64,000 nt of DNA from a virus. Its lineage: Duplodnaviria > Heunggongvirae > Uroviricota > Caudoviricetes. The notes under the pieces are model-generated. The model ran no database searches. It saw only the letters and a list, made by a program, of their open reading frames with translations, and was not told the DNA's origin. This document shows, in pieces, positions 3,072 to 64,000 of this stretch. The position numbers and the translations under genes are program-made. The stretch's first letter is position 1; each line of letters starts with the position of its first letter. Location of the stretch: IMG/VR virus record IMGVR_UViG_3300031555_002904; one strand, given 5' to 3'.

Positions 3072-6000
3072 TTAACTATATTTAAAATAAACTGAACCAG
3101 CAGGAGCTGCACCAGATGGGGCTGCAGTACCATAGCCAGTCATACCGACAATTTGTAAGAATGTAGTACTTCCTTGAGTATTATTATTGATATATAATTT
3201 ACCGTTAGAAGCAAGACCTATTTGCGCTGCAACACGTCCACTCCAATGGAAACTTAAACGAGGAGCAACTCCCCAAGTATCAGATTGAGCGCCGCCAAAA
3301 CCGTATTCACGAATTTCAACTGCTGAATCACTATAAGCAGAAGTAGATGTTGAAGTACCTCTATTTGCAAATCTTGCGCCATAAGCAAATAAATCACCAT
3401 AGAAATTCCAATGTTGTTTATAATCTACCCAATTACCAGCGATATCGCAAGCTCTAAATTGAATAGTGTCACTAGAATCATTAGCGCCCATACCAGTGTA
3501 ATTACTACCAGGTTTATCCCACATAAAAGCAGCGCCATTACTAGTTTGTTTATATCTATAGCCAAAGATTGGTCCAATATTAACTAAAATACCAGCTTTA
3601 GTTAACGTTAAATTACTTCCAACACTATTATTATTTTCAATACAGAAATCTCCAACTGCACCATAAGTACTTCCAGCTGTTCCCCTACGACCGATTAACC
3701 AACCGCCATCATGAGTGCCTTCTACAGTATTCGTTCCAGAGAAGAATAAGTTAGACCATCCATTTGATGCAGGTAAAACACGAATACCTTCATTATAAGA
3801 AGAACCATTGCCTTTTACAACCAAACGACCATCAATATAAGTTGCACCAAAAATAGTAAATGGAAAAGCTGTTGCTGAAGTCTAAGCGCCATTTACAGAA
3901 GTTTGATTATTAGTTTTATTATAATAAATAATCCAACGTCCTTTTGCTTCATTATACAATCCTTGATGAGGGTCACTTGACATCAATGTCATATAACTAG
4001 TACTATTACCAAGAATAATGCCTTCATATCCACCTCTAACATTACCATACATCATAAAACCGCCATAACCTGTTACAGTATTTGGGTATAAATGATTACC
4101 ATAAGAAGCATTATACCAACCTGTTGCGCCACTTGAACGGAACCAATTAGAACAAGATACAGAGCCAGTTACTCCAGCATCATAGCCAGTATAAATTCTA
4201 TCGCCACCAACAATTGGAGCATATAATAAACCAGATTCAACATTAAATGACATACCTTTATCATAACTATTTTCAGTACGACTCGTAGTAGAACCAATCC
4301 AATAAAATTGTTTGCCTAATGTACCAAAACTAAACCACTTAGCAACATTAGCATGACTATTAGTTGCACGTATCCAAGGATTATAGCTGCCATCATTAGA
4401 ATAAGTATTTACATTATAAGCACCGTTATTATAACGCTAACCATCAATCCAAGAAGAAGGTACTGTTTCAGATAAGTAACGACCTGAAGAATATGTCATT
4501 CCAGCTACTTCTAGTTTATAACTGGGAGTACTACCATTAGCAATTAATTTACCAATCGCAACACAATTATTTTTAATTTGTAAACCGGGAGTTATTTTAG
4601 TCCATCTATCAGCAGCCATATTAGTAATAGTGTCTTCACCATTAACAAACATAAAACTCGTAACTACGTTTTTAGTAGTAAATAACATAGCTTCATTACC
4701 ACTTGTTTGATAACTAATTACACCATCATAATCACTATGTCCAGTGCGGAAATTTAAACTTGAAATATTTCCGCTCCAACTTAACGTTCCACTCATGGAA
4801 TCGCCAGTTACATTTACAAAACGGCTATCGGCTTCTGCTTCGGTGTAATATCGAGCATCTAACTTGGTAGTATAATTTTCATCAGTAATAAAATCATACC
4901 AGCCTTTAACGGTACTAGTATTACCCTCCATGCGGCGATATTTTGGAGGATCCCAAAATGGTATAGCAATAATCTAATGATAATAACTAGAGCCATCTCC
5001 ATGATTAGAAACTAAATAAGATGCCCATCCGCTATTGCCAGCGAACTCTCCAGAAGTTTGAAACCAAGTAAAATTACCATTACCATAACCAGTACTTGCT
5101 AAGGCATTGGCAGTAGTTGCTGTTGTTGCATTACCACTTAAATTACCACTAAAAATTGGAGCAAATAATGTTCCAGTAGAAGTTTGAATTGTAAATCTAT
5201 CATCATAAGCAGGTCGACCTGTTGTATTATTATCATAACAAAACCAAATGCGTCTTTTAGTCGTACTACTAGAAGCTAAATCATTTGTAGTAATCGGAGT
5301 TAAAGCACTAGCTGTTGTAGCATTACCACTTAAAGCTCCATAAAAGGTTGTGGCATACATGGAACCCCATTTATTACCAGAAGTACCAACACTACCAGTG
5401 TTAGTTGTCTATGGATAAAAATAATTGGAGGTATTAAGAGTTACTCCATTCGTGGTGGTTGCATTATCTGCATTCGTATGAAATCTAATATTACTGTCTG
5501 CACCGAGAATTAAATCCTCAGTAGAAGTAACTTTTAGTTTTGTTGAATATAAAGTACTAGCAGCCTCACCAGCTCCAATATAAGTAGTGCCGCCAGCACC
5601 AATAACTAAGCTATGTCCATAATTTGTTCCGTCATCATATATTGCCATTGGAGTAGAAGTATAATTTGTGGTTTTATATGACACTAAGCCAGTCATTGTT
5701 CCGCCTGATAATTTTAAATATCTTCCATCGACAATGCTTGTCCAGTTTCCAGAATCAAGAATAGTTTTCCAACTACCAAAAGTTGCAGAATTATAAGCAT
5801 TGCGCATATATAAATTTCCAGTTGTGCCACCGAAACCTAACTAGGTAGCGTAATTACCAGTATGAGTATGTAAGTGAATAAGTCCCCATGCATTGTTCAT
5901 GCCAGAGGGTTTCACAGATGTTGTAATATTTCCACCTGTTGTACTAACCGTATGTACATAAGATGGAGTATTAACAACTTCAGTAGATGATATTGCAGTA

Positions 6001-6599
6001 TTACTATTGTAATATCTTAAGAATCCAGTAGAATCAATATTATCTAAAGTGTTTGCATTACCAGCAGAAGTTGCATAATTAGCGCTGGTAGCATTGCCAT
6101 TAAAAGTTGTTGCCACAAGAGTAACTCCTGCAGTTCCGCCTTTACCATTACCAAAATTATAAGTAGTAATATTACCATCAGTTGCTCCACTTGCAGTTCG
6201 ATAGTTAATCCAAATGGCTCCAGAATAAGCCGGAGATGCAAATGTATATTCATTTGTAGAATGAATCATATCATTATAAGATTTTAACTTCGCATAAGTA
6301 GAAGTGATAGTACTTCCATTTGCATCAGCGGTTGCTTTTGCGGCAAGACCACTAATACTAATAGGCCAAGTTCCAGAAGCATTAAGTCTAATTACATTAG
6401 CTGTATTCGTGGGACTAGACCAAACAACATTGCCACCATCAGCAAAAGCTTTAATACCTAAAAAATAAGGTAAAGATGTAGATTCTTCAGTTGAACTATC
6501 TACTGCAATACCGCCAAAGGCTCTTAATAATTGAGAAGAAGTTATCTCATTTAAAAAATTAGCTTTTCCAAGGACGAGTAAATCATTTACTTGTGCCAT
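3072..6599 (-). CDS. Tail fibre / receptor-binding protein (1175 aa, table 15)
   Basis: Six track ORFs share one frame and are separated only by five TAGs (5841, 5409, 4974, 4437, 3882); TAA stop. Repeated F.G.LSGNATTA motifs and W..ILDSGN joints are typical of phage fibres. N-terminus MAQVNDLLVLGKANFL. Confidence 0.85.
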
Positions 6600-6618
6600 T
6601 TAAATACTCCTTTCTCTC

Positions 6619-9045
6619 TTAAATTTCATATATCTTAAATGCTTGTAAATATTCTTTATCAAGCATACTAGTTTTTGTTAAGTTGGGTAATGTATCAATT
6701 CTTACCCACAATTCTGTTTCAGTTTGTGAAGTGCCATCTGCGGCAGGAATAAATTTAGTACTATCCCAAGCAGATTTCTGTCCAATAGGAGCAAACCAAG
6801 TTGAGCCAGTGTCACAGTTATAGACGCAAGCTGAACCATGTTTACGAATGCCTGCATTATGATTATTCCATGCTGTTGTAATAGCAGTAAAACCAGTTAC
6901 AGTACTTGCATTTGGAGAGCTTGTTTGTGTCCATCTATTATATAAAGAATTTGACAAAGACGGATAAGTTAACATAAACTCATATTTACCATCTACTTTA
7001 AAATGGTCTACTAAACCCATTCGACTAAAACGATTAGCCTAATTGCAAAAGGCAACTTCGCTAGCAGTAAACCAAGTTTTATCCGTAGTCACGTCAAGCC
7101 AATGAATACGTGCCCAAGCACTATTGTCGGATAGCACTTTAACTTTCATACCGCCAATATATCCAATTTCAGAAATGTCAGCAGCTTTTAACATACCCTA
7201 TTTAGTCATTTTAATATCAAAACTATCAGGCTCTTCAATAAATTCATAAGCCTATACAGAACCCTCTTTAGTTATTGACGCTGCAGTTTGATATAAGTCT
7301 TTAATATCAGTAGCAGACAATACAGAAGCATAAATTCTAAAATCTGACATTTTACCTTCCATCATTGTATCATCAGTTCTACTATCTTTACCAATATTAA
7401 AATCTCTTGTAAAACTTGAAGCAATATTAGTAAGAGCACCCGTATGAGTTTTTACTAAAGTTGCATTTTTATATATTTTAATACCAGTAGCAATATCTGT
7501 TGTAACAGTCCACATAGCCCATTCGTTATTAGTAATTGTACCTACTGATAAATCTGGACTACCATTCCAATATACTCGGAAAGATGTTACATTTTGTTCA
7601 ATATTAAAATTACTACCACTATAACCGCCAAAGTAAATACTTCTACTTGATGTATTTGATTCTTTTACCCAAAAATTAATAGTACACTTATCACTCAATA
7701 CTGCTTTCATTAAATCTTTAATTGGTAAATTAATGCCTGTGGTTGAACCATCAAACACAGAGCTTGCCGCATAGCGTGGAGTATCAGAGCTAAAAGTAAT
7801 ATTACCAACTGTTGTGCCATTACGACCATATCCACTACAATCATCAGCAGCATTAAAAAATGTTTCACTTAATGCTGGGCAATAAGGGGTAGCAATCGAA
7901 CCTTTTTCTAATTTTGGTAAAGCTATATCACATTTACCACCTGCCGCAAGTCTAAATAGCAAGGTTTTATTTGTAGTTGTTCCGCTTGCTGCAAAAGTCC
8001 AAGTTACTGTATATTTTTTCCATTGAGGAGTTAATGATAGAGGACAATTGCCATCACTGCCGCTTTTATTATGTCCTTCAGATGATTTAATATTAGAAAC
8101 TTGAACCACGCCAGATGTATTATTATAAAAGTACATAGTTAAAGTACTTGAAGTAGATGATTTAGCAAAGAAACTTGCTGTATATACTTCATTTATAGAA
8201 ACAGAGTGTCCTCCCCAAGAAGCAAAATCTTTATATCCAGTGCCTGCACTATTATCTGCACTACAGACAGGAAATCCATAGACCTTATCAAAAGAGGTTT
8301 GTCTATTTCCAATCGTATAAGAATTAGTTAATAAATTATTCGCATTTCCGCCATCTAATTTATAATGTAAAACTAAACCTTGACTTAATAATTTCACTTC
8401 TCTTTTGGATAAACATTCATCATATACTCGCACATCATTAATTTTACAGGCGGGTCTATATGACCCATTATTTGAATGCCCGACAGACCAATCAAATATA
8501 TTAAATTTATTTGCAGCAGATACATTCTCGCAAGTAAATTCCTTTTCGCAAATACCATCTACAAATAAACGATAAGTTTTAGTAGATTTCTTATAGGTTA
8601 AACATAAGTGATGCCAAGCTCCATAGATGTTTGTAGTTCCATAATATGAATAATATGTTCTTCCAGTAGAAGAAGAAGTATTACAACTCATATAACAAGT
8701 TGTATTACCACTATATTTTAAAGTAATTCCTGAACCACTACCTTTATCACTATTATGAGAATGATTATGATTCGTTAGAATTCCATTTGCAGAAGTAGCA
8801 TTACCAGGAGTGGTTGGATAACACCAACATGCCATAGTAAAATCTTTATTTAAATCAATTGTGGAATCACTAGTAATATGAGAAACTGTATTAATAGCTG
8901 TTCGTTGATAACAGCGCATATCTGTTTTTCCACCACTGGTGGCAGCTGCAACACCGCCACCAGTAGTATTTAAACTAAATTTTATTGGAGAAGAACCATA
9001 GTTTTCTAAATTACCATGTAATGGTAACCATATTAATAAACTCAT
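6619..9045 (-). CDS. LamG/concanavalin-like multi-domain tail spike / RBP hub, copy 2 (808 aa, table 15)
   Basis: Track ORFs 7252..9045 and 6619..7020 join through TAGs at 7252, 7198 and 7039. Two LamG-type domains (WHHLCLTY...LFVDG...INDVRVYDECLS; WAMWTVT...MSDFRIYASVLS) flank a CBM-like domain (YTASFFAK...WKKYTVTW...PKLEKGSIATPY). Confidence 0.85.
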
Positions 9046-9060
9046 ATATTAATCTCCTCC

Positions 9061-11313
9061 TTAAATAAATATAAAATCTAAACTTTCATCGGTACTATTA
9101 TACACAAATTTTACCTTAGAGTCAACTGTAATCGCTCCGTTGATAGATGTATCACCTTGCACATGGAAAGCTCCTGTGGGGGCAGCAGTTGAATTAATAG
9201 CAACCTTAGTAGCATTTGCATAATGATTGCCGCCAGAAGTCATTCTGACTGAACCGTTGTAAGCCTCAGTATAAACCAAACGTCCACTCACTAAGTTGGT
9301 ATTACCAGTACCACCTTTTGAAGGTTCAAGACAGGTAATTGCGGTCGCGACACCAGAAGCAGCAATATAAACGGGAACACTAGCATTACCTGCGGCTGTA
9401 TCAGCGGTATGTACCACCAATTCACCACTAGTTTCAGGATGCGTAACATCATAATTGGTTGTACCATTATAGTAACGCCAAACTGCTCTATGTGTTCTAT
9501 CAGCTGGTGTTAAATATAGAGTACTTCTAATACCAGAAGCACTACCTAAAGTAATACCTGCATATCCGTTAGCTGCAGGTGCAACAACAATACCTTCATC
9601 ATCACCAGAGCCATAAGGTCTACCACTAACGATAAGACCTCCGTTTAGGGTAGTAACTTTTGATACAGTTAAAGTATTTGATAATGAAGCAGCTCCAGTT
9701 ACAGATAAAGTATTACTTAAAGTTGTGGCGCCAGTAATGGCTAAAGTACTTAATCCTTTAATAGAGCCAGTAACTTGTAAATTACCACCGATATTCACAT
9801 CAGAAGCAAAAGAAGAAGCTGTGCCTACGTCTAAGCCACTAGGGAATTTAGATTTACTATTTAAATATAAAACAATCTAATTTGTGGTGGAAGAAGTAGT
9901 TGGATTAATAACTAATGCATTATCATTAGAAGATAATACGACATGATTTTCACTTGGTGTACCAAACACTAATTGAGTTGTATTACCAGTACTAGAACTA
10001 GCGTGAGAGCCTGTTAAATAAACATGACCTTTTGCATTTAGAATTCCTTTTACAGTGGTGCCAGTTGCATTAACCTATAACCAAGTATTTTCTTCTTCCC
10101 AACCAGTACCAACATACCAATAATTTAAAGTTCCTCCTGCGCCATAGGCACCCATTTCTGCTTTTACGCTTGCAGTATCACTAGATGTATTTTTCTATTT
10201 CCAATCAATATATCGTGCCCATCCACCGCTTTTTGTAACTTCAGTAGTAATACTTCCACTAGTATTCATTGTTAATTTATTTTCACTGGTTTGAATAACT
10301 AGAGGGCCAGACATGGTATCGCCTGTTTTTAAAACATATTTACCATTATAATGACCATCAAGATAATTAGTAAAATTATCTTCATCAAGAATAACTCTCC
10401 AATCTTGCCAAGTACCATTATTTTTACCACGAACCGCAAGTTGACCAGTGCGATAGTCTTGATAAATTTGAGTAATCCAAGAGTCGTTATATTTATTTAC
10501 AATAGCTACACCATCACTAATACCAAGAATACCAGAAGTATCATTAACATACCAAATACCAGTATTAGTGGCACTGCCAATCGCAATTCCTGTTGTAGCT
10601 GTTACATTAGTGCCAGCCATACGATAAGTAGTAGGCTATGGAATTCCATCAGTAGTAAAATAAACTGGTCTATCAGTACTACCACCTGATTTGGTTAAAC
10701 GATTAGCTTTATCAGCAACACCAATTAGATTACCTGTAACATCACCAGTTACATTACCAACAACATTGCCAGTTAAATTTCCAATAAAACCGCCAGTAGA
10801 AGTTACAGTTCCAGACACAGATAGTGAGCCAGAAGCGTTACCATTTACAATATATAAGTTAGCCCAACGCAAACTAGAAGTACCAAGGCTCTTTTTGTTA
10901 GTCTCACTTGGAACAACATTACCGCCAGAAGTAATAGTACTGGCAGTTGTTAAGCCATTTAGTTTACTTGTTGTGCCATTTAAATAATAAGATGTTGAGC
11001 CTAAATAAATATCACTACCAAACAAAGATTTTTTAGCTACATAAATACCGCCAGTTACTTGAATTGCTCCAGAACTTGCGGCTGTCGCTTCTGCACTGCC
11101 AGTAACAATAACTGCTGTTGATGCTCTTAGGTTTGCACCATATATATTTAACCAAGCGTTATCTGCTGTACCTAAATTATAGGTTAAGGTTTCTCCTGGT
11201 ATAATAACATCATAAGCAATTGCACCTTTATTTAGAAGTACATCTTCATTATATGTAGATACTCCAAGAAAACGAGAAGGCCCATTAACAATTAAATCTC
11301 TTAATTGTGCCAC
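9061..11313 (-). CDS. Tail fibre protein (750 aa, table 15)
   Basis: GTG start after AAGGAG. Three track ORFs join through TAGs at 10636, 10195, 10075 and 9877; TAA stop. GNLTGNVVGNVTGDVTGN repeats and a QIYQDYRTGQLAVRGKNNGTWQDWRVILD fibre-joint motif. Confidence 0.85.
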
Positions 11314-11348
11314 AATTTTTCACTCCTTTTCTTCAAAATCTATATATC

Positions 11349-11386
11349 AAAAAAAAATAGGGGTGAGGATAAATCCTCACCCCTAT
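11349..11386 (-). terminator. Rho-independent terminator
   Basis: ATAGGGGTGAGGAT / ATCCTCACCCCTAT stem followed by a T-run on the minus strand. Confidence 0.85.
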
Positions 11387-11392
11387 GAATTA

Positions 11393-11614: not shown

Positions 11615-11703
11615 AATTGTAATCTCCTTTTCAATTCAATTTTGAGATTTATTCTCAATAATAATGATGTTTATTTCATGAACTTTAATCTTATTAGTCC
11701 AAG

Positions 11704-14121: not shown

Positions 14122-14133
14122 ATTGCCACCACC

Positions 14134-15724: not shown

Positions 15725-15745
15725 TTTACCTCTCCTTTCAAGTTA

Positions 15746-17677: not shown

Positions 17678-17707
17678 TTCTAAATATCATCCTTTCTTTA
17701 AATTTGC

Positions 17708-52700: not shown

Positions 52701-55700
52701 CTTCATAAGCACTTTTTGCATTTTGTGCCGCTTGTGCAGTTTTTTCAGTGGCTTCTTGTGCACTCTTCAGCTATCCTTCTGGAGAATTTGCTGCTATCGC
52801 AGAACCTAAAGCAATAAAAATTGCAATCAATGCTGTTACTGCTAAAATAATCCAACCAATTGAACCTAACGCAGCGGTCATACCCGCACTCGCAGTTGCA
52901 CCTGCTGTTGCTGCAGTAGTACCAAACATTGTCATTAAAGTTGATGCAACTGGTAAAATACCGATTACAACACTGATTACTGCACTAATTTTATCCCAAG
53001 CTGTTGCATCAGGATTATTAAAAACATCAATAGCTCCCTATACTGAACTGATTGCAGAGCCTAGTCCCATAATTAAATCAGTAGTATTAGTAATCTAATC
53101 GGCCCAATCTGTTAAACCGCTCTTATTAAAAGATTCATTTAAACCTTCTTCACTACCGCCAACATTTAAATTAGCGTTTTCGCTATCCATTTGTTTCTAA
53201 GCAGCTTGCTTAGAACGAAGATAATCTTCTCCTCCACGAGTTTTTGCATCTGCGCTTGTTTCTCCACCATAAGGCGTTCCTGCTGCATCCACTGTCAACA
53301 TTTGAGCCTAATCTTCAAGAACTGAAGTAATACCGCCTTCCTCTTCACTAGATAGCTATCCTAAAATTTCTTCAAGACGTTCAGCACTAGCAGTAGTACT
53401 ATTTAATTCTTGTGTCATATTTTCTAAATCTGCAATTCTACCATCTAATACACTATCAGATTTACCCAAAGCAGCTAATGCAGCCTATAATTCTTTAGCT
53501 TCAGCAGCTGTCGCAGCAAGCTTTTGTTTTAATGTATCCTATACTTTACCTAATCCAGTATCGGCAGTTTTATAAACTTCATTACCATTATCGTCTTTAG
53601 TTTTTACTGAAAGTTTAGAAGCAGTTTCTCTTAAATCTTTGGCACGGACTTCCGTCATAGCACCTTTATCCACTGCTTTTCCAATATTTTCAATTTTTTC
53701 GCTAGCCTATCTTTCAGCATCTCTCATTGCTTCATCTAGCTCAGACTTCATAGCTTCACCATATGCCTAAGCAGCTTCTTCTCCAGCAGCTTTAACTTTA
53801 TCAAAAATAGCTTTCGCCATTTCATCTCTACTGTCGGCCGCCTCTCTTAATCCAGCTAAAAATTCTCCTCGAACAGCATCAGCTGTTACTGTTTCACCAG
53901 AATCTACTACCCTCTACCGAGCCTAAGCATATTGCTAATTAATATAATCTCCCTACTCACCAAATCGATGATGTTTTGTCTTTCTGTGATTTGCTCCATA
54001 ATCTATTACATCGTCAAAGGCTTGAGATATTGCGTCATTTCGTTTTTGATTTTCTTCACCCTAATGTTTCTTCTAAAAATCTTCCTTGGCCTTATCTCTA
54101 GCCTCAATTTTCTCATAGGCTTTTGCTAAATCTCGAGCGTCTTCAACTTCTTCCCTTGCTGCATCCGCTGCTTTACCAGCAGCAATTGCTCTCTTATCCA
54201 TTGCTCGTACTAAATCCATTTGAACTTGAAGCTATTTAAGCTCTTCTTCAGTTACGCGACCAGCAGCTGCACGTAGCTATTCTTGCATACGAATTTCTCT
54301 ATCAAGAGAAGCATTTTCTGCATCGCCTTCACGACCACGCATATTAGATTTTAAGTTACGAATACCCTCAAGAGCATCTTCTTTAGTCTTTTCATGTTCT
54401 TTTTTACCCGCTGGAGTAAATTGCTTAATACTATAAGCAGCATTTCTTAAACCCTAAGCAATTTCTTTATGGAAAACTTTTGTGGCAATAGCTCCAATAG
54501 TTGCTAGAACGCCACCTAAACCTCCAAAAGCATCAACTAAACTACCTACTCCATCAATAACATGGCTTAAACCATCTAAAAAACCAATGAAAAAATCGTC
54601 ATCTAAAATTTTAGTATATAAATTTTCTGCTGCTGCTGTTACTCTGTCTCGAGCAGCCTCCCAGCTTTCAGCATAAATCTCAGCTTGTTTATTAAGTTCT
54701 CCATCCGCTGCGCCAGCAGTTGCAAGATTTTCTTCCATAAAATCCCAATTATCCATCAAAGTAACCATTTGGTTATATTGACGAACACCAGCAACAGTTT
54801 GAGCCAATGCCAACTATTGGTCTTTATTTAAAGTTACCCATTTTGCGGCCATTTCTTCAAGAATACTATCCATATTCTTCAATTCGCCAGTTTGGTCAAA
54901 AATACTAATACCGACTTTTTGCAAAGCTTCAGAGTATTTATTTAAAGTAGTACCATCTTCAAGGGTGTCTCCTTGCTTTAAACCTTGAATACGTGCAAAG
55001 ATTGTTTTTAATGCTGTACCAACAACTTCTTCACTTTCACGAGATGTTGCAGTAATTGTTGCCAAAGCAGATGCAGCATATTCATAACTCAAACCAATAG
55101 TATCTGCAATACCGGCAAATTTCTCTAATCCACCAGCAATTTCATCAGTGCTAGACGCAGTTGCAGCACCTAATTTTGTTAATACATCGGCATAATGTTC
55201 ATAAGCAACATCGCCTTCTTTGTTAAAATTATTCCAAATAGCAGTTAATTGATTAGAAACAACATCTGCGCTTTGTCCAGTTACATTTGCCATTTTTGCA
55301 GTAACAGCAGCTTTTTGCATAGCTTCAGATTGAGTATCACCCTATTGGAAATAGATTAAAGAAGCTTTAGCATATTCATTAGTTGTTGTACTTAATGCCC
55401 GCGCTGCCTTATTTGCCTTAGCTGCAAATGCATCCATTTCAGCAACACTAGCACCAGTAACAATGCGAATATCATTTAAAGATTTATTTAAATCTTGAGC
55501 ATATCCATAAGCAGACTATACGGTTCCCATAAAACCATGTAAAATACTAGAAGATAACTGCCATCTTGCAGTATTTGCTAATGTAGTACCAAGCTCTCTA
55601 ACCCTTTGACTGCATCTAATTAAAGGAGCTTCTGCCTATAAAACAGACTAAGCTAAATTCGTAAATGCTTGACGACCGGCCGGACCAAGAGCATTTAATT

Positions 55701-55989
55701 GATTAGCATATTGCTGAAGAGAAACTCCGCCTTTTTTTAAGGAATCAGAAAATTGACCTAAATCTAATTTTCCTGTTTTTAAATTTGTAGCCGCTTCTAG
55801 TTTAGCCTATAACTCTCCTGCTGCGGTCATAGCTCTTTGAATTTCAGGTGTAATTTGTGAAATTCCACTATTTTTCAATGCAGAACCAGTAGCCAATCCA
55901 TTAAGCTCTTTTTGCAAATTTTTAATTGCGGCAATAGCCTCATTCGTATTCGCAGTAAAAGCTAAACTAACATTAAGATTTTTTGCCAT
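46714..55989 (-). CDS. Tail tape measure protein (3091 aa, table 15)
   Basis: Eight track ORFs lie in one frame; the gaps contain TAG only (about 50 counted). TP901-type TMP core ([Q]SAYGYAQDLNKSLNDIRIVTG, ASLIYFQ[Q]G, GTALKTIFARIQ, KDQ[Q]LALAQTVAGVRQY). Hydrophobic TM block near 52780-53000, long helical Ala/Glu-rich body, C-terminal FATGGYTG motif, TAA stop. Confidence 0.9.
47270..47350 (-). repeat. Pro-Glu low-complexity linker in the tape measure C-terminus
   Basis: TPDPEPEPEEPVPEPEPEPEE. Confidence 0.85.
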
Positions 55990-56030
55990 ACAAATTTTTA
56001 TCTCCTTTCTCTCCTAATTTTTTATTTTGC

Positions 56031-56076
56031 AAAATAAAAAATCGGGGATGAGAATAATCAAATTCTCATCCCCGAC
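56031..56076 (-). terminator. Rho-independent terminator between the chaperone and tape measure genes
   Basis: TCGGGGATGAGAAT / ATTCTCATCCCCGA stem followed by TTTTTATTTT. Confidence 0.8.
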
Positions 56077-56121: not shown

Positions 56122-56661
56122 TTAGCCCAATTTAGTTAGGACTTCACGCAATAAAGCCATATTCTCTGGGTCCCCAATCTTCTTTTGGATTTCAGTAGCA
56201 TCAAAATTTAAATTATCATAATCAGCTTTTAATGTATCTAAAATTCCCATTACAGAATTATTATATTGATAAATATTATTAATAGTAGACCAAACATTTT
56301 CTTGAATTTCTTGCCAATCTTTTTCACGAATAACATCAACAATATCTGTAAAAATACCAGTGCTTACTAAAATATCATATAATTTAAATGGGTCTTCTTT
56401 CATTTTTTCAGTGAAACTTAAATTAGTATAAGCATAAGTAATTTCTAATACCATATTAAATTTTACTCTCATTGGATTGTAAAATCCATTATCATCAATA
56501 GACTTATTAATAATGTTTGATACTAATTCAAGCTTTTCCTTAAAAGGTAAATAATGTTTTACTTCATAATAAACTTCTTCTCCTGCTAAATTATAATAAA
56601 AGACACTTGTTGCCCCTCCGTCTACTTTAGCTTGAAGTTTTGAAAATGGTACTTTAGCCAT
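56122..56661 (-). CDS. Probable tail assembly chaperone (179 aa)
   Basis: Immediately upstream of the TMP, helical, TAA stop, no TAG. Assignment is positional. Confidence 0.6.
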   Translation of the reverse strand: MAKVPFSKLQAKVDGGATSVFYYNLAGEEVYYEVKHYLPFKEKLELVSNIINKSIDDNGFYNPMRVKFNMVLEITYAYTNLSFTEKMKEDPFKLYDILVSTGIFTDIVDVIREKDWQEIQENVWSTINNIYQYNNSVMGILDTLKADYDNLNFDATEIQKKIGDPENMALLREVLTKLG

Positions 56662-56728: not shown

Positions 56729-57898
56729 TTATACATTAAACTTTATATTGATTGGAGCTAAATTTAAGTTTTTACGCACAGTATTATAAGCTTCAGTCTC
56801 CATAAAAGATTCGCTTTTAGCAACATCATTGCTACTAGTAGTTTTTAAAGACTTATACATTATATTAGCTAAAGACTTAGGTTTTAATCTTGGATTTTCA
56901 TGCATTCTTTCCATTCTTTTAATAAGTCTATTAATTAAACTCTCAAGTCTTGTTAATGCTAATTCAAAGTTTTTACCTGAATCTGCTAATGTTGATTTAA
57001 TCTAAATATTATAAATTACGGCTCCAGACTCATCAATAACAACAACGTCTCCTCCTGTCAACCAACTAGCTGAGTTTAATGATGCTAATAACCAAGGCTA
57101 TACTACTTGTGGAGAACTAAAAATCCCTGAAAATCCACCGTGGTCATCTATTTTTAAATTTACAAGCTAATTACTATTAACAGCACTAGCAGACATTAAA
57201 CCAAATAATTGTTTATTGTATTGAGCCACATGATTCATAAAAGCATCTAACTATTTACCTTCGGCATTGCCCTAAGAAGCAAAAATAATTTCTCCATAAC
57301 TACGTCCAGTAAAAGATTCATGTCTAGACTAATACAAAGGAGATTTTGAAGAAATTGTTTTATGTAATAATTGAGCATCTGTATTATTCATTTTATAGCC
57401 AGAAAGTTGATTACACATATCACTATAATGTCGTCTAAAAAAATTCTAAATCTCTTGAGCGGCCGCATATGCAGCTAAATCTTTATCCAAAGAACCAACT
57501 GCCGTATTTAATTGAGTTTTAGTAACATTAATACCACCCTCAGTCATTACACTTGCTTCTTCTATATTCTAGGACCAAGTCAATTCTTTTTCTCCAAATT
57601 TAGTAATAGCAATTAAGGTAACAGCATTATTACCAAAATATTTTTTTTGAATCTATTCCCATCTTTCATATATCTTTTTTGCACTATAAGATGACTGACG
57701 TCTCATAGCATTTTTCCATACTCCTGGATGAGACTGACTCTCTCTTAATTCCATAGTATACATTTGAGATATTTCATCTTTTAATATTACTAAATCGTGA
57801 TAAAATTCTTGATTTTTTTCATTATACCATTCTTCAAATATTTGAATAAAAGTATCTTTATCCAATAAATGTCCACCAAAAATAATACCTTCAGCCAT
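56729..57898 (-). CDS. Hypothetical protein (389 aa, table 15) with a possible PD-(D/E)XK nuclease-like motif
   Basis: Only two short fragments appear in the track. Nine in-frame TAGs join them into one ORF (AAGGAGG RBS, TAA stop). Contains TGGDVVVIDESGAVIYNI[Q]IKST (D...Q-x-K). Confidence 0.7.
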
Positions 57899-57981: not shown

Positions 57982-58986
57982 TTATTCCTCAGTTGCAAAA
58001 CCTGCAAAGGGACGAGTACCAGCTACCATGCCATTGAAGTCAATAGTATCAGTAGAATGAGTGCTTACACGGTCGATAGCGCTATCGGTATCAGCAGATT
58101 CAATAATCTGAATAGCTGCCAGAACCTTCTTAGTGCGGTCGAAACGAGTATAATCTGGGAATGCATCCATAGTGAAAGTGAAAGTGGATGGGTCGCCAGA
58201 AGATGCCATAGTGAAAGTAAAGTTAGACTGAATCTTGCAGTTAGGAATTACGAACTCTGCAGGCATATCAACACCCTCAGTATTACGGAACAGAGTAGAA
58301 GCCTCTAGGTAATAGTTACCACCGAACTTGTCGGGAGTGATATCAATCTGCTGTGCCATAGACTTACGAGCAACATAGTAGTCAACCAATACAACACAAC
58401 CAGCATAGAAAGGACTCAAATCGTTAGCACGAGCCTGCTGATTAACCTCACTACGAGCTTCATCAGTCCAAGTTTCAGTTAACTTAATTACATTGCCTTC
58501 AACAGAACTAGGAATGAAAGGCTCAGTAACGATTTCACCATTCTGCATTAACATAACATAAATGAAATCTTCACCATAGCCACTCTTACCCAACTCAGGT
58601 ACATAAGGAGCTTCCTGTAGAGTAATAGTTACTTCACCATCGCCAACAACAACAGCATCAGTCTGCTCAGTAGTATGAACCATAATGGGCTTAGCATCAC
58701 TAGCCTCAATCAAACCTGCGCCAGATAGAATCATGAAGCCAGCGGGAGAGATTAGAGCATCTTCCATAGTGAAAGTAATGGTACGCTCACCTTCCCAAGC
58801 CATCAAACGAGAGTTACCACGGCCGCCCTGTGCATAAACGGTAGTAGCAGCACCCTCCATGCTAGAAGTCTTCAGAGTATCAAAATAGATAACAGGTTCG
58901 TTCTTATAGAAAATCTTGTTACCAACCTTCTGGTTAGCCTTTGCCTTTAAGACAACATCACAAATTTCGCGAACGCCAAATTTCAT
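57982..58986 (-). CDS. Major tail (tube) protein (334 aa)
   Basis: Start MKFGVREICDVVLK after AAGGAGG (the track start at 59034 lies in the upstream gene). AQGGRGNSRLMAWEG and FTMASSGDPSTFTFTMD resemble tube proteins. High-expression codon style, followed by a terminator, no TAG. Confidence 0.75.
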   Translation of the reverse strand: MKFGVREICDVVLKAKANQKVGNKIFYKNEPVIYFDTLKTSSMEGAATTVYAQGGRGNSRLMAWEGERTITFTMEDALISPAGFMILSGAGLIEASDAKPIMVHTTEQTDAVVVGDGEVTITLQEAPYVPELGKSGYGEDFIYVMLMQNGEIVTEPFIPSSVEGNVIKLTETWTDEARSEVNQQARANDLSPFYAGCVVLVDYYVARKSMAQQIDITPDKFGGNYYLEASTLFRNTEGVDMPAEFVIPNCKIQSNFTFTMASSGDPSTFTFTMDAFPDYTRFDRTKKVLAAIQIIESADTDSAIDRVSTHSTDTIDFNGMVAGTRPFAGFATEE

Positions 58987-59012
58987 GGTTTGTATCCTCC
59001 TTAAAATTTTAG

Positions 59013-59735
59013 TTAGTGAATATTTTTCATCCAATTGTCAGGTTGATTGTCGGGTTTGCCTCCAGCCAAACGACAACGGACGTCCATATCCCAATTAATA
59101 TATAGCATATATCTTTCAACTAAGTCATATAATTGGAACATGGTTAAATCCATTAGCTCCTACATAGGAATATGTAATCCCACTGTAAGTATTGAAAGAT
59201 ACTGGCTAAATATACTGATATTACTTTGACCCTTTTCAGCAGCAACCTTAGCTCGTCCTCGCATAAGTTTTTCTGCTATCTCTCGAGCTTTAGCATTTGC
59301 TGGATTAAAACTCTACTAATCCATAGGGCCAGTTTTCAGACAACAGATATTTGTCAACGCTGCTTGTAATGACTCAAAATTCTTTTCATCAATTTGAATT
59401 GTCATTCCATCTCCACTAAGTAGCACAGAGCGTGGAGTCATCATTACTTTATATTTTGGAAATATTAAAGTAAAGACTTGCTGCACCGCAAACTTTTTAT
59501 CTGCCGCTTCTTTTTCTGACATTATCGTCATAAATATTTGAAAATTATTTGTATCTCTTAAAAGAGATTCGTCCTTGATAAACATGGATTTATTTAAGCA
59601 CAAACACTAAATACCTGTAAAAAAATCTGCTTCCCCTATAAATGCAATCTCTTTGATGCGAGGTTGATGAATAACTAACTAACATTCAGGAACGGGATAA
59701 TCCGTTCCGCACATTAAAGATAATCGAGTATCCAT
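59013..59735 (-). CDS. Conserved tail-associated protein (240 aa, table 15)
   Basis: The ATG overlaps the upstream TGA. Five TAGs including a tandem pair (GPMD[QQ]SFNP at 59313-59318); TAA at 59013. Confidence 0.75.
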
Positions 59736-60319
59736 CAATTATTAAACATTGCATCAAAGTTTTTGATGAAGTCTTCTTCATCATTAGGATTAGGCATTTT
59801 CTTTTTATCCTCTTCTCCATGGATAGCTTGATACATTAAACACAATCCACCAAATTCATCCGTAAGAATCATTTGATTTGCGCCTAAAAATTCCAACTCA
59901 CCAATTCCAGTTAAATGTTTTCCATTGAACATAGAATCAATCTCTGCCGCAATCTTATAAGGACGCAACTCAAAGTCTTTCATTTTCCATTGGTCAAAAT
60001 GACAAATAATGTCAAACTCAATAATATTATCTCTAAACTCGGGATTCTTACGATTACCAGTAAAATTATCAAAACTAACAATAATATAATTCAATACTGA
60101 ACCATCAACAGTTAGCTTAGGTACAATCTTAATCTATTCACCAAATAAACCAAGAGTTTCATCCTCGGTTAAATTAGGCTTATTCATACAATCACGAGTT
60201 GTGTAGTATAACATTTTTTTCAGACGCTCATTTTTCATAATCATCTGAACAATCAAATTCATATCTTTTTCAGTAGACAAAAAACTTGATTTAGGATAAG
60301 AATAAACTTCTCTTTTCAT
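59735..60319 (-). CDS. Probable tail terminator / neck protein (194 aa, table 15)
   Basis: Two track ORFs join through TAG 60134 (LFGE[Q]IKIVPK); TGA stop. Function is positional. Confidence 0.65.
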
Positions 60320-60346
60320 ATCTATATCTCCTTTATCACTTAATTA

Positions 60347-61564
60347 TTAAAATAAAGACTCAACAACAATTGTTTTACTATAATCTCCATATAGTAATTC
60401 AAATTGTCCACTATAAGAACTAACCCATCGAACAGATACTCGTCTTGGGTCAGTTGGGTCAGGAATTAATTCAACAGGATATTTCTTGTCGACATACCAT
60501 TCATCAGCTTTTGTACCATTAAATTCATAATCATACAATTTCTTAACCTTAATAAATGTTTCTCCAATAATATCCATTTCATCAACAGTTCCTTCATTTG
60601 GGTCTTTAATTGGTTCAATTAAACCACCAACGATACCAGCATCTACATCATCCTCAGTTTCATTAGCATAATACTCTACTGCGATAACTTCCAAGATTCC
60701 AGGAGTCGAAATCCAATCAGAAGCTTCAACACGCCAACAAGTATCATCGCCTTGAAGATAAAACTTACTATATCGTTTAAAATAATTCATTGTGTATTCA
60801 TTTTTTGGCATTAAAATACTCAATGAGTGATTAGGAGTGTCAACACTAATTCCATGTTTTTGAATGAAGTTAATTTTAGTTTCCACTGGACCGCGCACGG
60901 CCGCATATGTGGTATGAATACCATCTTCATCCTCCCAAGCAATCTAATAAGAGCACTTGCGAATATCACCACGGAAATAAGCTAATTCAGTTAAATCTTG
61001 TAAATAAACTAACCAGTGAGTTTTTGTACCTAACCACTCAAACACATCGCCGCATTTGAAATTATATTCAAAACCCACAGAAATGATTTTATCATCATAG
61101 TCTTGTTTTAGTTTATTTGGATTAATAAGTGCGCGAACTGGCTTGCGGTTCTCCGCATCCACTCGCACGACCTCAGCAGCCTGATAAGAATTCCAAACTG
61201 CATGGTCTAAAGAACGACGCTTGTCTTTAATCATACGTTCTTGCTGTCTGTTACCGCCCGCCTGACGAAAACGAGTAGCTTGTTCCCAAATACCAGTAAT
61301 TTTGGGGTCTAGTTGCGTCAATACGATACCAGCCTCATCAATTTTATCTTGTGACAACAAATTCTCAATCTTTTGGATTGTTACAGTATCTAAATCAATG
61401 TTCATATTTTTAATTACTTTCATCAATTCTTCTACACGATTTTGCTATTCAAGTTGTTCGGCAGTAGAACCAGCTGGGTCAAACGGTCTTTTATCGTAAA
61501 CTCCTAATCGACCTTTCATTAATCTAAAAGGGACACGGCTACTTAAATCATAACCTGATGCCAT
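60347..61564 (-). CDS. Probable head-closure / neck protein (405 aa, table 15)
   Basis: ATG at 61562-61564; TAGs at ~61445 and 60944 join two track ORFs; TAA stop. Function is positional. Confidence 0.65.
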
Positions 61565-61856
61565 GGCTTAACTCCTACAAAAGACTAATGCTTTCAAACA
61601 CAGTCTTGCGGTATAGTTCAAAATTCGTCTCTTGAGCTTTCAGTCCCTCTAATTTACATAGCAGCTGTAAAAATTGCGGGTTCATGAATACTTCATTCAT
61701 GCCCGCAATTTCTAAAATAACTGTATCTAATTGTTTAGGCCAATCTTCTTCATGCTCGCGCATTGGAATTAATTTCCAAAGTTGGTTGGTTAAACGACGA
61801 ACATTTACATCAATGCTTCTATCATCAAAATCAAATCCATATTTAGTCAAGAGCAC
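61548..61856 (-). CDS. Small head-tail region protein (~102 aa, table 15)
   Basis: Read-through of TAG 61575 gives SISLL[Q]ELSHGIRL-TGA, overlapping the next start. Confidence 0.65.
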
Positions 61857-62421
61857 TAACCTCCATTAAGCTAGACCAGTTGCTCTTATAACCGCCTTCC
61901 GCAGGTTTTCTGCGTTTATATAAGCGTTGCATATGGAACGAATCTCTGCGAGCCTCAGTCAATAAAGACAATAGCTTAGATAAGTGGTTCGCTTGAGAAG
62001 TCATTTTAAAATCAGAGCCACTATATTTCATTCGAGTATTTTCGATAGAAGCAACCTGGCGCTGAACCCAACCTTGCTTCATTAAAAGCGCCAGGATGTT
62101 GATTTCTTCTTGAGTAAGCTCAACATTAAATCGAGACTTATCAACTAAAACATTTGGAGTCTACAATGTGTCACTTGGTAACTCTCCCCAAACAGTTCCC
62201 AATACAAAATCATCGGGAGTTAATTCATCCGCTCCCATAGTTCTAACTTCAATCGTATAATTGTATAAATCTTGACGAGGAAATTCAAAACCAGGAATTG
62301 CATTAATTAAAAGATTTTGCAAATCTTTTAAAGTATCTTCGGGAGTTAATTCCAAGTATAAATCATCGGTAACTTGTCCAAGAAAGCGATTATAAACAGC
62401 CGAAAATTGTGTCTCAGCCAT
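61843..62421 (-). CDS. Probable head-tail adaptor (192 aa, table 15)
   Basis: Track ORFs 62161..62421 and 61843..62082 join through TAG 62161; AAGGAGG RBS, TAA stop. Function is positional. Confidence 0.65.
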
Positions 62422-62440: not shown

Positions 62441-63061
62441 TTATTCAGCAGATTCAGCAGGAGCCTCAACTGCAGGTTTAGTAACAATATTATATTTAGG
62501 TGCGGCCGCAGGAGCAGTTACAGTAGGTGCTGTACGACGTCCGGCAGGAGCTGCAGCAGGCTGTACTCTACGCTCGCCACCATTATTAGTTTTCAAGATT
62601 GTCTTCTGGTCATCTTCTTTATCTTCCTCATTGTGCTTCAATGCGGCTTCCACATCAAAACCAGTCTTTTCCTTCAAAGCCTTACGCTTTGGGATATCAA
62701 CCATAGGAATAGAAATACTCAACTTCTTAATTAAATCAATAACTCCAATGGGAGCAAAGTCAAGTGCATCCAAGAAAGCATCCAAGGAACCACTAGTAAT
62801 CAACTTGGCAACATCAGCTTCACTCATATGATATTCAGGTTCAGTCTTAATACGAGCAGCTTGAATTCCTTCAAGGTCCAAAATCTGCAAGAATTGACTT
62901 AACATAGTAACTCCACCAGGCTGGAAAGTTAATTCTTCTAACTCTTCAGAACTAATTGGAATAATCTGACCAGGCTTGAATTCTCTACGAATTCCCTTGT
63001 CTGGAATCTTATAAACAACGGTGCTTGCACCACGGTTTTTTACTCTATACATTGTACTCAT
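62441..63061 (-). CDS. Conserved hypothetical protein downstream of the capsid gene (206 aa, Pro/Ala-rich tail)
   Basis: Start MSTMYRVKNR after AAGGAG (the track extension runs through a terminator). No TAG. Confidence 0.75.
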   Translation of the reverse strand: MSTMYRVKNRGASTVVYKIPDKGIRREFKPGQIIPISSEELEELTFQPGGVTMLSQFLQILDLEGIQAARIKTEPEYHMSEADVAKLITSGSLDAFLDALDFAPIGVIDLIKKLSISIPMVDIPKRKALKEKTGFDVEAALKHNEEDKEDDQKTILKTNNGGERRVQPAAAPAGRRTAPTVTAPAAAPKYNIVTKPAVEAPAESAE

Positions 63062-63094
63062 TTTTATATCTCCTTTTTCTCTGTTTTTAAAATG

Positions 63095-63133
63095 AAAAAA
63101 AGGGGGAAGAGGGGATATCCCCACTTCCCCCTC
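63095..63133 (-). terminator. Rho-independent terminator after the major capsid gene
   Basis: GC-rich hairpin GGGGAAG-TGGGGATATCCCC-TCTTCCCC followed by T7. Confidence 0.8.
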
Positions 63134-63155
63134 TTAGTTATATATTAATATTTAA

Positions 63156-64000
63156 TTAGGCATTAACGTCCTTAACGTTATAGGACATATCAACATAGTT
63201 AGAGCTGTCCCAAATAGAGTCAGCCAAATCATACTGACCTAGCAACTCAGTATCAGCATAAGCGCAGATGTTATTAGCTAACATAGCAGTTACGCCAACC
63301 TTCTTGTAAACCTGAATCTCACGAGAACGGTCAGCATTTACATACTCGTCAACGATTGTACCACCCTCGAAAGCAATCTTAACAGGCTTGCTATCAGCAC
63401 CACTTGGGATGATATAGCAATAACCAGGATTGATTACCTTACGAGTATTGGTCTCGTCTTCCAAGCCCTGAGGTAGGATGATAACCTTACGTCCCTTGTA
63501 CATAGCCAAGTGACCAGTATCCCACAACTCTTGCTTCATATTCTCAGTCCAACGCCAACCCTGCTCAGGAACCATCTTAACTGCGAACTCATAAGTGCAG
63601 TAAATAGAAGGCTCACCATAAGCGGAAGCGATAACCAACAAGTTGTCGAAAGCCTTTTCATCGAAGCCAGTAGCAACAACAATATTTGCAGGAGGTAACT
63701 GGTTAACAGAAGCAGCTAGAGCATGTCCAACTTCCTTCATAATTAACTCATCCATACCTTCCATAACAATATTAGTTACTTCAGCGAAGTCCACACGACC
63801 GTCTAGGAACTCCTCGAATCCAATCTGAGCAGCTCCACCGATAGCAGAAGTACGAACTTCGAAGCTCTCTTCTTCTGCAGGACCTAGCTTAAATACTTCG
63901 TAAATACCAGCCAATCCAACACGAGTGATGAACTGCTTAGCACGAGAACGAACGTCTCTCTTACGACGGAAAATAGGCTTGTCGCCCTGAGCGAACTGCT
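63156..64000 (-). CDS. Major capsid protein (5' part outside the window)
   Basis: The open frame continues to the window edge (...QFAQGDKPIFRRKRDVRSRAKQFITRVGLAGIYEVFKL...). High-expression codon style, strong terminator, followed by neck genes, no TAG. Confidence 0.75.
   Translation of the reverse strand, partial: QFAQGDKPIFRRKRDVRSRAKQFITRVGLAGIYEVFKLGPAEEESFEVRTSAIGGAAQIGFEEFLDGRVDFAEVTNIVMEGMDELIMKEVGHALAASVNQLPPANIVVATGFDEKAFDNLLVIASAYGEPSIYCTYEFAVKMVPEQGWRWTENMKQELWDTGHLAMYKGRKVIILPQGLEDETNTRKVINPGYCYIIPSGADSKPVKIAFEGGTIVDEYVNADRSREIQVYKKVGVTAMLANNICAYADTELLGQYDLADSIWDSSNYVDMSYNVKDVNA

What the first reader, a model, noticed from the sequence alone, without database searches (positions are those of the whole stretch)
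3072..64000. TAG load is graded by protein role: a possible codon-encoded stoichiometry and timing control for virion assembly
Seen in sequence (TAG codons / aa): capsid 0, tail tube 0/334, chaperone 0/179, post-capsid protein 0/206; neck genes 1-5 each; hub 5/880, Dit-like 5/987, tail tip 17/2547, tape measure ~50/3091, nuclease-like 9/389; fibres 3-8 each. High-copy proteins avoid TAG while low-copy proteins that nucleate assembly carry it. Inference: if host RF1 still competes at UAG, full-length yield scales as (read-through)^n. Bulk subunits could then accumulate while tail completion is withheld until the suppressor system is fully on. A simpler alternative is selection against a rare-tRNA codon in highly expressed genes.
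Basis: partly seen in the sequence, partly recalled or inferred. Interest (0 to 1): 0.75.

Follow-up and report, generated by a model that had tools for sequence, protein, structure and literature searches.

The report
Abundant virion genes avoid recoded TAG
In this gut phage, which reads the stop codon TAG as glutamine, the most heavily made virion proteins almost never use TAG; this holds across its relatives and looks like ordinary selection against a costly codon, not a built-in dial for protein ratios.

Summary
The counts are right. Capsid, tail tube, chaperone and the post-capsid gene have no TAG. The tape measure has 51, the tail tip 17, and neck, hub and fibre genes 1-9 each.

The pattern is not chance. 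In 35 dereplicated recoded relatives, TAG makes up 1-2% of glutamine codons in capsid, scaffold-like and tube genes, against 29-49% in portal-position, neck and tape-measure genes. GC3, other codon bias and protein conservation do not remove the effect.

A 12.8-kb block (15137-27896), including a 2683-aa protein, also has no TAG.

The dial idea is not supported:
- Among this phage's TAG-using genes, TAG count simply follows glutamine count (r=0.96, homogeneity P=0.15).
- TAG sites turn over like ordinary synonymous codons.
- Low-copy genes lose all TAGs as often as chance predicts.
- A 51-TAG essential protein needs about 96-99% read-through, which leaves little range for genes with 1-9 TAGs.
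- Codon adaptation in standard-code relatives predicts TAG share (rho -0.53).

Best reading: expression-linked selection against a costly codon, on top of the published late-gene TAG gate. This scan has reported the same pattern in several other recoded phages, and a 2026 preprint notes a TAG-free capsid gene in a crAss-like phage.

The parts
63156..64000 (-). Major capsid protein gene (370 aa; its 5' end lies 268 nt beyond the window). 0 TAG, CAA/CAG 1/11, AAG share 1.0.
   Evidence: Homologs are annotated major capsid protein in Bacillus phages. Its orthologs have a TAG share of 0.019 in 32 recoded relatives.
62441..63124 (-). Post-capsid protein (227 aa), 0 TAG. Function unknown.
   Evidence: TAG share 0.076 in relatives.
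59013..62421 (-). Five genes in the head-tail ('neck') position (192, 102, 405, 194, 241 aa) with 1, 1, 2, 1, 5 TAG. The last one (59013-59738) is the most TAG-rich family across the lineage.
   Evidence: +0.15 above the locus mean, higher in 28 of 34 loci. The fold has no named match.
57982..59034 (-). Tail tube / major tail protein (350 aa), 0 TAG, CAA/CAG 1/11. A terminator-like hairpin follows at 57962-57929.
   Evidence: TAG share 0.018, and 30 of 35 relatives have zero TAG.
56729..57898 (-). Accessory 389-aa gene with 9 TAG (41% of its Gln codons). Present in only 4 of 80 related loci. No family match.
56122..56661 (-). Tail-assembly-chaperone-position gene (179 aa), 0 TAG. A perfect TTGACA-17-TATAAT promoter-like site lies upstream at 56725-56697.
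   Evidence: TAG share 0.10 in relatives.
46714..56061 (-). Tape measure protein (3115 aa), 51 TAG. Residues 1-2070 hold 48 TAG in 127 Gln codons; residues 2071-3115 hold 3 in 55.
   Evidence: PHROG tape-measure matches. Orthologs carry 45-64 TAG. Its share is average for its locus.
38946..46589 (-). 2547-aa 'tail tip' protein, 17 TAG. A near-consensus promoter-like site lies at 46651-46623.
32528..38144 (-). 'Dit-like' (994 aa, 5 TAG) and 'hub' (885 aa, 5 TAG) genes. Roles not verified.
15137..27896 (-). TAG-free block of 573, 2683, 69, 643 and 195 aa genes: 0 TAG in 118 Gln codons, with higher CAG and AAG use than the flanking genes. Terminator-like hairpins at 26112-26078 and 15129-15105.
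   Evidence: The matching block in sister phage G012 is also TAG-free (0/148), and it is TAG-poor in other relatives.
3072..15018 (-). Fibre / LamG-type receptor-binding genes (294, 805, 750, 808, 1175 aa) with 3, 8, 4, 3, 5 TAG.

Best explanation
This phage belongs to a family of large siphovirus-like phages in which many lineages read TAG as glutamine, served by a phage tRNA(CUA). In most late genes TAG behaves as a nearly neutral third glutamine codon. It drifts to about 20-40% of Gln codons under AT-biased mutation (CAG to TAG is one synonymous step under this code). Each TAG probably carries a small cost every time it is translated, through competition from release factor 1 and/or slow decoding by a limited suppressor tRNA. 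Selection therefore removes TAG in proportion to how heavily a gene is translated. Capsid, scaffold-like and tube genes are almost cleared, several others (chaperone, 573-aa, 643-aa, 512-aa, the giant protein) are partly cleared, and the least codon-adapted genes hold the most. The gradient is thus a by-product of mutation-selection balance, the same logic as ordinary codon-usage bias. It sits on top of the already published on/off gate that keeps TAG-bearing late genes silent until suppression is active. Shown here: the distribution, its conservation across the lineage, site turnover, and the link to codon adaptation. Inferred: the cost of TAG and the expression levels.
For: (1) TAG means Gln: TAG sites align with Q in standard-code relatives 35% of the time, against 40% for CAA and 50% for CAG. 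Complete recoded relatives carry tRNA(CUA) and standard-code relatives do not. (2) In 35 dereplicated recoded relatives the TAG share of Gln codons is 0.013-0.019 in scaffold-like, capsid and tube genes, 0.08-0.19 in three others, and 0.29-0.49 in portal-position, neck and tape-measure genes. The tree forces at least 5 changes of code state, so the pattern recurs in separated lineages. (3) The same genes show CAG preference (0.54-0.73 against 0.18-0.37) in 14 standard-code relatives, so selection on their codons is seen without any TAG recoding. (4) A codon adaptation index computed in standard-code relatives, with the three reference genes left out, predicts TAG share of orthologs in recoded phages (Spearman -0.53, P=0.003, n=29). 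(5) TAG sites turn over like synonymous codons: the odds ratio for two sequences sharing the codon at a conserved Gln column is 1.85 for TAG, 2.05 for CAG and 1.48 for CAA, and no column is always TAG. (6) Zero-TAG orthologs of low-copy genes: 11 observed against 10.9 expected. (7) In the window, TAG count follows Gln count (r=0.96) and shows no 5' bias once the tape measure is set aside (KS P=0.84). (8) Conservation is not the cause: the 128-aa family (82% identity) has share 0.33, while the scaffold-like family (50% identity) has 0.013. (9) A 2026 preprint reports a TAG-free capsid gene in a crAss-like phage and gives the same explanation (10.64898/2026.08.21.746148).
Against: No expression, read-through or proteome data exist for this phage, so both 'highly expressed' and 'costly' are inferred. 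TAG falls about 20-fold in the top genes while CAA falls only about 2-fold, and the role class still explains most deviance after the codon-bias covariates. The effect is therefore TAG-specific, which a timing model would also predict. The chaperone and the 573-aa gene avoid TAG without a CAG preference. The complete absence of TAG from the 12.8-kb block here and in sister phage G012, and the step inside the tape-measure ORF, are stronger and sharper than a smooth expression effect predicts. Near-consensus host-type promoters ahead of the chaperone/tape-measure and tail-tip genes would suit a real translational lock on those genes.
Confidence: 0.62

Rival explanations
1. TAG number per gene is an evolved dial: full-length yield scales as (read-through)^n, so bulk subunits build up while low-copy nucleators, above all the 51-TAG tape measure, are held back until suppression is fully on.
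For: TAG-free bulk genes sit among TAG-bearing low-copy genes in one co-directional array. Family-level TAG share is conserved between this phage and its relatives (rho 0.61). One gene just upstream of the tube is consistently enriched, and it holds 4 of the 7 TAGs in the lightly recoded relative L053. Host-type promoter-like sites precede the chaperone/tape-measure and tail-tip genes. r^51 would make a very steep switch.
Against: The tape measure's TAG share is average (P=0.63); its 51 TAGs follow from its length and Gln richness, both shared by standard-code orthologs. There are no conserved TAG sites. Nothing suggests selection to keep at least one TAG. An essential 51-TAG protein needs r of about 0.956 for 10% yield and 0.987 for 50%; at that r, genes with 1-9 TAGs lose only 1-33%, far less than the 10- to 100-fold copy-number differences. 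The giant protein ranges from 0 to 23 TAG among orthologs. TAG share varies about 7-fold inside one ORF. The portal-position gene always carries TAG. From established knowledge of P22, SPP1 and T4, coat plus scaffold made without portal assemble into dead-end shells, so early build-up of head subunits would be harmful. Terminator-like hairpins after the tube gene and ahead of the tape-measure gene already offer a conventional way to set ratios.
Confidence: 0.12
2. Temporal classes. TAG-free late genes are 'dual-coded' so that their translation can begin before the code switch. The pattern would then reflect when proteins are needed, not a per-codon cost.
For: The replication genes in the same record (NrdD, DNA polymerase III alpha) are TAG-free (0 of 57 Gln codons). 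TAG is concentrated in the structural module of complete relatives. The TAG-free block is bracketed by terminator-like hairpins and could be its own transcription unit. Published models propose early genes readable in the standard code (Borges et al.; Peters et al.).
Against: TAG-free and TAG-bearing genes alternate at gaps of 10-30 nt within one array, which argues against separate transcription timing for capsid and tube. The gradient is continuous and tracks codon adaptation. The giant protein carries TAG in most relatives.
Confidence: 0.14
3. Mosaic history. TAG-free stretches are pieces imported recently from standard-code relatives, or this lineage was recoded recently, and TAG has not yet built up there.
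For: Recoded and standard-code phages are interleaved on the tree (at least 5 changes). This phage and its sister L022 have lower TAG shares (0.16-0.18) than other clades. The nearest complete homologs of the giant protein (47-50% identity) are in standard-code phages. There is a sharp step in TAG share inside the tape-measure ORF.
Against: Capsid, scaffold-like and tube genes are TAG-poor in all 35 recoded relatives despite 50-75% protein divergence, which is far too old for 'not yet accumulated'. The block is TAG-free in sister phage G012 even though its giant protein shares only 22% identity. No close donor was found. The standard-code phages nearest for the giant protein are also the nearest complete genomes for head genes, so vertical descent explains that similarity.
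Confidence: 0.1

Closest known systems
Stop-codon recoding of late genes in gut phages (Borges et al., bioRxiv 10.1101/2021.08.26.457843; proteomic support in Peters et al. 2022, PMC9523058)
   Same: TAG is read as Gln and a phage tRNA(CUA) is present in complete relatives. TAG is concentrated in structural genes and absent from replication genes. Code state changes often among close relatives. Those authors also ran a per-family test of TAG against CAA/CAG preference.
   Different: That work looked for families enriched in TAG (lysis genes and a crAss 'tail tube' family) and proposed an on/off timing gate. It did not describe depletion in the highest-copy virion genes or a link to codon adaptation. 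This lineage is a large siphovirus-like group, not crAss-like or Agate.
TAG-free major capsid gene in an amber-reassigned Crassvirales genus (bioRxiv 10.64898/2026.08.21.746148)
   Same: It reports that the capsid gene shows no TAG use and attributes this to pressure for efficient translation.
   Different: That is a single genome from another phage order, with no lineage-wide numbers, no tube or scaffold genes, and no standard-code controls.
phAss-1 / Phassvirus code-15 phages (Babkin et al. 2023, PMC10607447; OQ749652)
   Same: A related phage (capsid 45% and tube about 50% identity) with TAG in terminase, portal, tape-measure and fibre genes and with tRNA-Sup(CTA) genes. Its capsid and tube homologs are uninterrupted ORFs even under the standard code.
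   Different: It belongs to a different genus, has a different gene order downstream of the tube, and the paper does not analyse TAG load by gene.
Classical codon-usage bias from translational selection (the CAI concept; my own knowledge, not checked here)
   Same: A disfavoured synonymous codon is removed in proportion to expression. Its sites are not conserved. Its frequency follows an independent adaptation index.
   Different: Here the disfavoured codon is a reassigned stop, so its likely cost includes premature termination. Its depletion (about 20-fold) is much steeper than that of the ordinary minor codon CAA (about 2-fold).

Membership tests
Code-15 (TAG to Gln) recoded phage | In-frame TAGs that join fragments into full-length conserved ORFs ending in TAA or TGA | tested here: met
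   for example the tape measure is fragmented under table 11 but is one 3115-aa ORF under TAG=Q, with PHROG tape-measure matches.
Code-15 (TAG to Gln) recoded phage | TAG positions align with glutamine in standard-code homologs | tested here: met
   35% Q at 106 aligned TAG sites, a profile like that of CAA (40%) and CAG (50%).
Code-15 (TAG to Gln) recoded phage | Phage-encoded suppressor tRNA(CUA) | tested here: inconclusive
   None was found in the 105.8-kb record, which is only about 56% complete. It is present in the complete recoded relatives G002, G005 and G004 and absent from standard-code G008 and G006. An earlier scan note places two such tRNAs elsewhere in this genome; I did not check that.
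Code-15 (TAG to Gln) recoded phage | Early/replication genes readable in the standard code, TAG concentrated in late genes | tested here: met
   NrdD and DNA polymerase III alpha have 0 TAG in 57 Gln codons.
Codon-usage bias under translational selection | Depletion of the codon in the most highly expressed genes, conserved across relatives | tested here: met
   Expression is inferred from protein role, not measured.
Codon-usage bias under translational selection | Codon frequency tracks an independent adaptation index | tested here: met
   rho -0.53, P=0.003, using an index computed in standard-code relatives.
Codon-usage bias under translational selection | Individual sites not conserved (synonymous turnover) | tested here: met
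Codon-usage bias under translational selection | Measured expression level correlates with codon use | not testable with these tools
   No transcriptome, ribosome-profiling or proteome data for this phage.
Programmed read-through that sets protein ratios (for example Q-beta A1, retroviral gag-pol) | Recoding site at a conserved position | tested here: not met
   no invariant TAG column; TAG fraction per conserved Gln column ranges from 0 to 0.85.
Programmed read-through that sets protein ratios (for example Q-beta A1, retroviral gag-pol) | Special local sequence context at the site | tested here: not met
   the base following TAG is distributed like the base following CAA or CAG.
Programmed read-through that sets protein ratios (for example Q-beta A1, retroviral gag-pol) | Both the terminated and the read-through products are functional | not testable with these tools
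   This needs protein data.

The most novel reading that the evidence does not exclude
TAG density is a functional translational rheostat in this phage family. Genes behind host-type promoters (chaperone/tape measure, tail tip, a fibre gene) are locked by TAG, and the 45-64 TAGs of the tape measure make tail initiation an ultrasensitive read-out of suppressor activity. TAG-free modules, such as the 12.8-kb block, stay readable under both codes and can therefore move between recoded and standard-code relatives.
Probability: 0.12. Interest if true: 0.7.

Novelty: new member of a known kind. Interest (0 to 1): 0.3.

Why it matters
The result shows that a reassigned stop codon is not equal to the ordinary glutamine codons. 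Selection keeps it out of the most heavily translated genes, which implies that suppression has a per-codon cost even in phages that depend on it. This family mixes recoded and standard-code phages on one tree. That makes it a natural experiment for how a codon reassignment spreads through a genome: first and furthest in weakly expressed, AT-rich tail and neck genes, last or never in capsid and tube genes. In practice, TAG share could flag highly expressed genes of unknown function, such as the 573-aa and 240-aa proteins here. It also warns annotators that TAG-free genes inside a recoded module are not evidence of a different code or of foreign origin.

Tried and rejected
- GC3 or evolutionary rate as the full explanation: rejected. 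The role class keeps an odds ratio of 0.09 after those covariates, and a highly conserved 128-aa family is TAG-rich while the poorly conserved scaffold-like family is TAG-free.
- A 5' bias of TAG, as might be expected for a gate: none once the tape measure is set aside.
- Tandem repeats inflating the tape measure's TAG count: the spacing of its TAGs is irregular.
- A close donor for the TAG-free block: scans with the 643-aa, hub and giant proteins gave 0, 4 and 2 distant loci.
- Pfam, PHROGs and PDB sequence searches gave no names for most head, neck and distal tail proteins.
- A good model of the TAG-richest neck-position protein (pLDDT 78) matched no solved structure and only unnamed siphovirus proteins, so its role remains unknown.
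- An Atlas look-up of the 573-aa protein gave only weak fibre-like leads.
- Suppressor tRNA in the window's own record: not found, but the record is incomplete.
Full report
WHAT IS THERE

The window is the reverse complement of bases 32412-96411 of a 105.8-kb IMG/VR phage record. The record is linear and CheckV rates it about 56% complete. All late genes lie on the window's minus strand.

Reading TAG as a sense codon joins many table-11 fragments into long ORFs. One example is a single 3115-aa tape measure with strong PHROG tape-measure matches.

At 106 TAG sites that can be aligned to two standard-code relatives, the partner residue is Gln 35% of the time. The figures for CAA and CAG sites are 40% and 50%, so TAG means glutamine.

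No tRNA is present in this incomplete record. The complete recoded relatives G002, G005 and G004 each carry a tRNA(CUA), and the standard-code relatives G008 and G006 carry none.

The replication genes in the same record, NrdD and DNA polymerase III alpha, have no TAG in 57 Gln codons. This is therefore a code-15 phage of the published kind (Borges et al.; Peters et al.). It is related to phAss-1 and more distantly to large siphoviruses of Enterococcus, Lactococcus and Bacillus.

CHECKING THE OBSERVATION

The capsid and tube roles are supported by homologs annotated as major capsid and major tail or tail tube protein. The labels 'hub', 'Dit-like', 'tail tip' and 'nuclease-like' are unverified.

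TAG use is heterogeneous across the 44 late genes (G=124, df 43, P about 1e-9). Two things need correcting:
- Among the 25 genes that do use TAG, the share is uniform (0.21; G=31, df 24, P=0.15). TAG count simply follows Gln count (r=0.96).

In this one genome the pattern is therefore two-state rather than graded.

RELATIVES

A scan with the tube protein returned 80 loci: 51 recoded (TAG is 17-41% of Gln codons), 28 standard-code, and one lightly recoded locus, L053.

After dereplication to 35 recoded loci, TAG's share of Gln codons per gene family is as follows:

| Gene family | TAG share |
|---|---|
| Scaffold-like | 0.013 |
| Capsid | 0.019 (26 of 32 have none) |
| Tube | 0.018 (30 of 35 have none) |
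| Post-capsid | 0.076 |
| Chaperone | 0.10 |
| 512-aa head protein | 0.19 |
| Portal-position, neck and tape-measure genes | 0.29-0.49 |

The tree interleaves recoded and standard-code phages and forces at least five changes of code state, so this is not one inherited accident.

A binomial model gives the high-copy class an odds ratio of 0.09 after GC3, K/E codon bias, CAG share and protein identity. The cells in that model are not phylogenetically independent, so its P value overstates the evidence, but the effect is large.

Pooled over loci, some families differ consistently from their locus mean. The gene just upstream of the tube (59013-59738) is enriched in 28 of 34 loci, the 512-aa protein is depleted in 29 of 29, and the tape measure is average. 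A role-linked gradient is therefore real at the level of the lineage.

WHY IT IS PROBABLY NOT A DIAL

1. TAG sites are not conserved. At conserved Gln columns the TAG fraction ranges from 0 to 0.85. The odds ratio that two sequences share TAG (1.85) matches the values for CAG (2.05) and CAA (1.48).
2. Low-copy genes lose all their TAGs exactly as often as chance predicts: 11 cases observed, 10.9 expected.
3. The tape measure's large count comes from its length and Gln richness. Standard-code orthologs share both, with 185-193 Gln codons.
4. An essential protein with 51 TAGs needs per-codon read-through of about 0.956 for 10% yield and 0.987 for 50%. At those values, genes with 1-9 TAGs lose only 1-33%. 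That is small against 10- to 100-fold differences in copy number.
5. The giant protein has 0 TAG here and 9-23 in orthologs.
6. Inside the single tape-measure ORF, TAG share falls from 48/127 to 3/55 after residue 2070 (P=2e-6). Copy number cannot explain that.
7. The portal-position gene always carries TAG. From established work on P22, SPP1 and T4, coat and scaffold made without portal assemble into dead-end shells, so early build-up of head subunits would be harmful.
8. Terminator-like hairpins directly after the tube gene and ahead of the tape-measure gene already provide a conventional way to set ratios.

WHAT FITS BETTER

The same capsid, scaffold-like and tube genes prefer CAG in the standard-code relatives (0.54-0.73, against 0.18-0.37 elsewhere). 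Selection on their codons is thus seen without any TAG recoding.

A codon adaptation index computed only in standard-code relatives, with those three reference genes left out, predicts TAG share of orthologs in recoded phages (rho -0.53, P=0.003, n=29). It also predicts TAG share in this phage (rho -0.39, P=0.036).

TAG therefore behaves as the worst glutamine codon. It is tolerated where translation is light and removed where it is heavy. Its depletion (about 20-fold) is much steeper than CAA's (about 2-fold). This suggests a cost specific to TAG, most plausibly release-factor competition; that cost is inferred, not shown.

WHAT REMAINS UNEXPLAINED

The total absence of TAG from 15137-27896 is shared by sister phage G012 (0 of 148 Gln codons), even though its giant protein is only 22% identical. 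The block is also TAG-poor in every other recoded relative examined.

The block has higher CAG and AAG use, which standard-code relatives share for the giant and 643-aa genes. It is bracketed by terminator-like hairpins. Higher expression, a separate transcription unit and import from standard-code phages all remain possible.

Near-consensus host-type promoter-like sites sit 34-36 nt upstream of the chaperone/tape-measure operon and the tail-tip gene. These would suit the published on/off translational lock.

PRIOR KNOWLEDGE

Three points are already in the literature:
- The on/off timing idea and per-family tests of TAG preference are published.
- A 2026 preprint notes a TAG-free capsid gene in a crAss-like phage and gives the translational-efficiency explanation.
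- phAss-1 shows uninterrupted capsid and tube ORFs.

This scan has itself reported TAG avoidance in high-copy virion genes in several other recoded phages, with the same reading. The finding is therefore a well-documented new instance of a known pattern. The codon-encoded stoichiometry idea stays an untested hypothesis that the sequence evidence does not favour.

Noticed in passing
window 15137-27896: A TAG-free 12.8-kb block of five genes, including a 2683-aa protein with a BspA-type LRR. The matching block in sister phage G012 is also TAG-free (0 of 148 Gln codons) although its giant protein is only 22% identical. The block is TAG-poor (0.09-0.20 against 0.28-0.40 in the flanks) in other recoded relatives.
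   Followed up: partly
window 46714-56061: TAG share changes sharply inside the tape-measure ORF: 48 of 127 Gln codons in residues 1-2070, then 3 of 55 afterwards (P=2e-6). A similar TAG-poor fifth sextile occurs in the orthologs of G002 and G005 but not G004.
   Followed up: partly
window 56725-56697, 46651-46623, 9125-9097 (minus strand): Perfect or near-perfect TTGACA-17-TATAAT promoter-like sites lie 34-52 nt upstream of the chaperone/tape-measure operon, the tail-tip gene and a fibre gene. Eight sites scoring at least 11 of 12 were found on the gene strand, against about 2 expected in shuffles.
   Followed up: partly
window 57962-57929, 56077-56040, 26112-26078, 15129-15105 (minus strand): Strong terminator-like hairpins directly after the tube gene, between the chaperone and the tape-measure start, after the 573-aa gene and after the 195-aa gene. 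They could act as conventional attenuators that set ratios.
   Followed up: no
window 56729-57898: A 389-aa accessory gene sits between the tube and chaperone genes. It has the highest TAG share in the window (9 of 22 Gln codons), very low GC3 (0.16) and homologs in only 4 of 80 related loci. There is no Pfam or PHROG match, so 'nuclease-like' is unverified.
   Followed up: partly
L002-L081 (tube-centred related loci): Recoded and standard-code phages are interleaved on a four-protein tree, with at least 5 forced changes of code state. Locus L053 is only lightly recoded (7 TAGs), and 4 of them lie in the ortholog of window 59013-59738.
   Followed up: partly
G004:C1:144282-144608: One complete recoded relative encodes a 358-aa ORF with a release-factor (PF00472) domain. 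The other four complete relatives searched do not. Whether it is RF1- or RF2-type was not determined.
   Followed up: no
window 59013-59738: The most TAG-enriched family in the lineage folds confidently (pLDDT 78) into a mostly helical protein. It has no match among solved structures and matches only unnamed siphovirus proteins.
   Followed up: yes
window 1342-2064 and 26175-27896: Two proteins of unknown function (240 aa and 573 aa, the latter with weak fibre-like leads) are TAG-free here and nearly so in all recoded relatives, which would mark them as probably abundant.
   Followed up: partly
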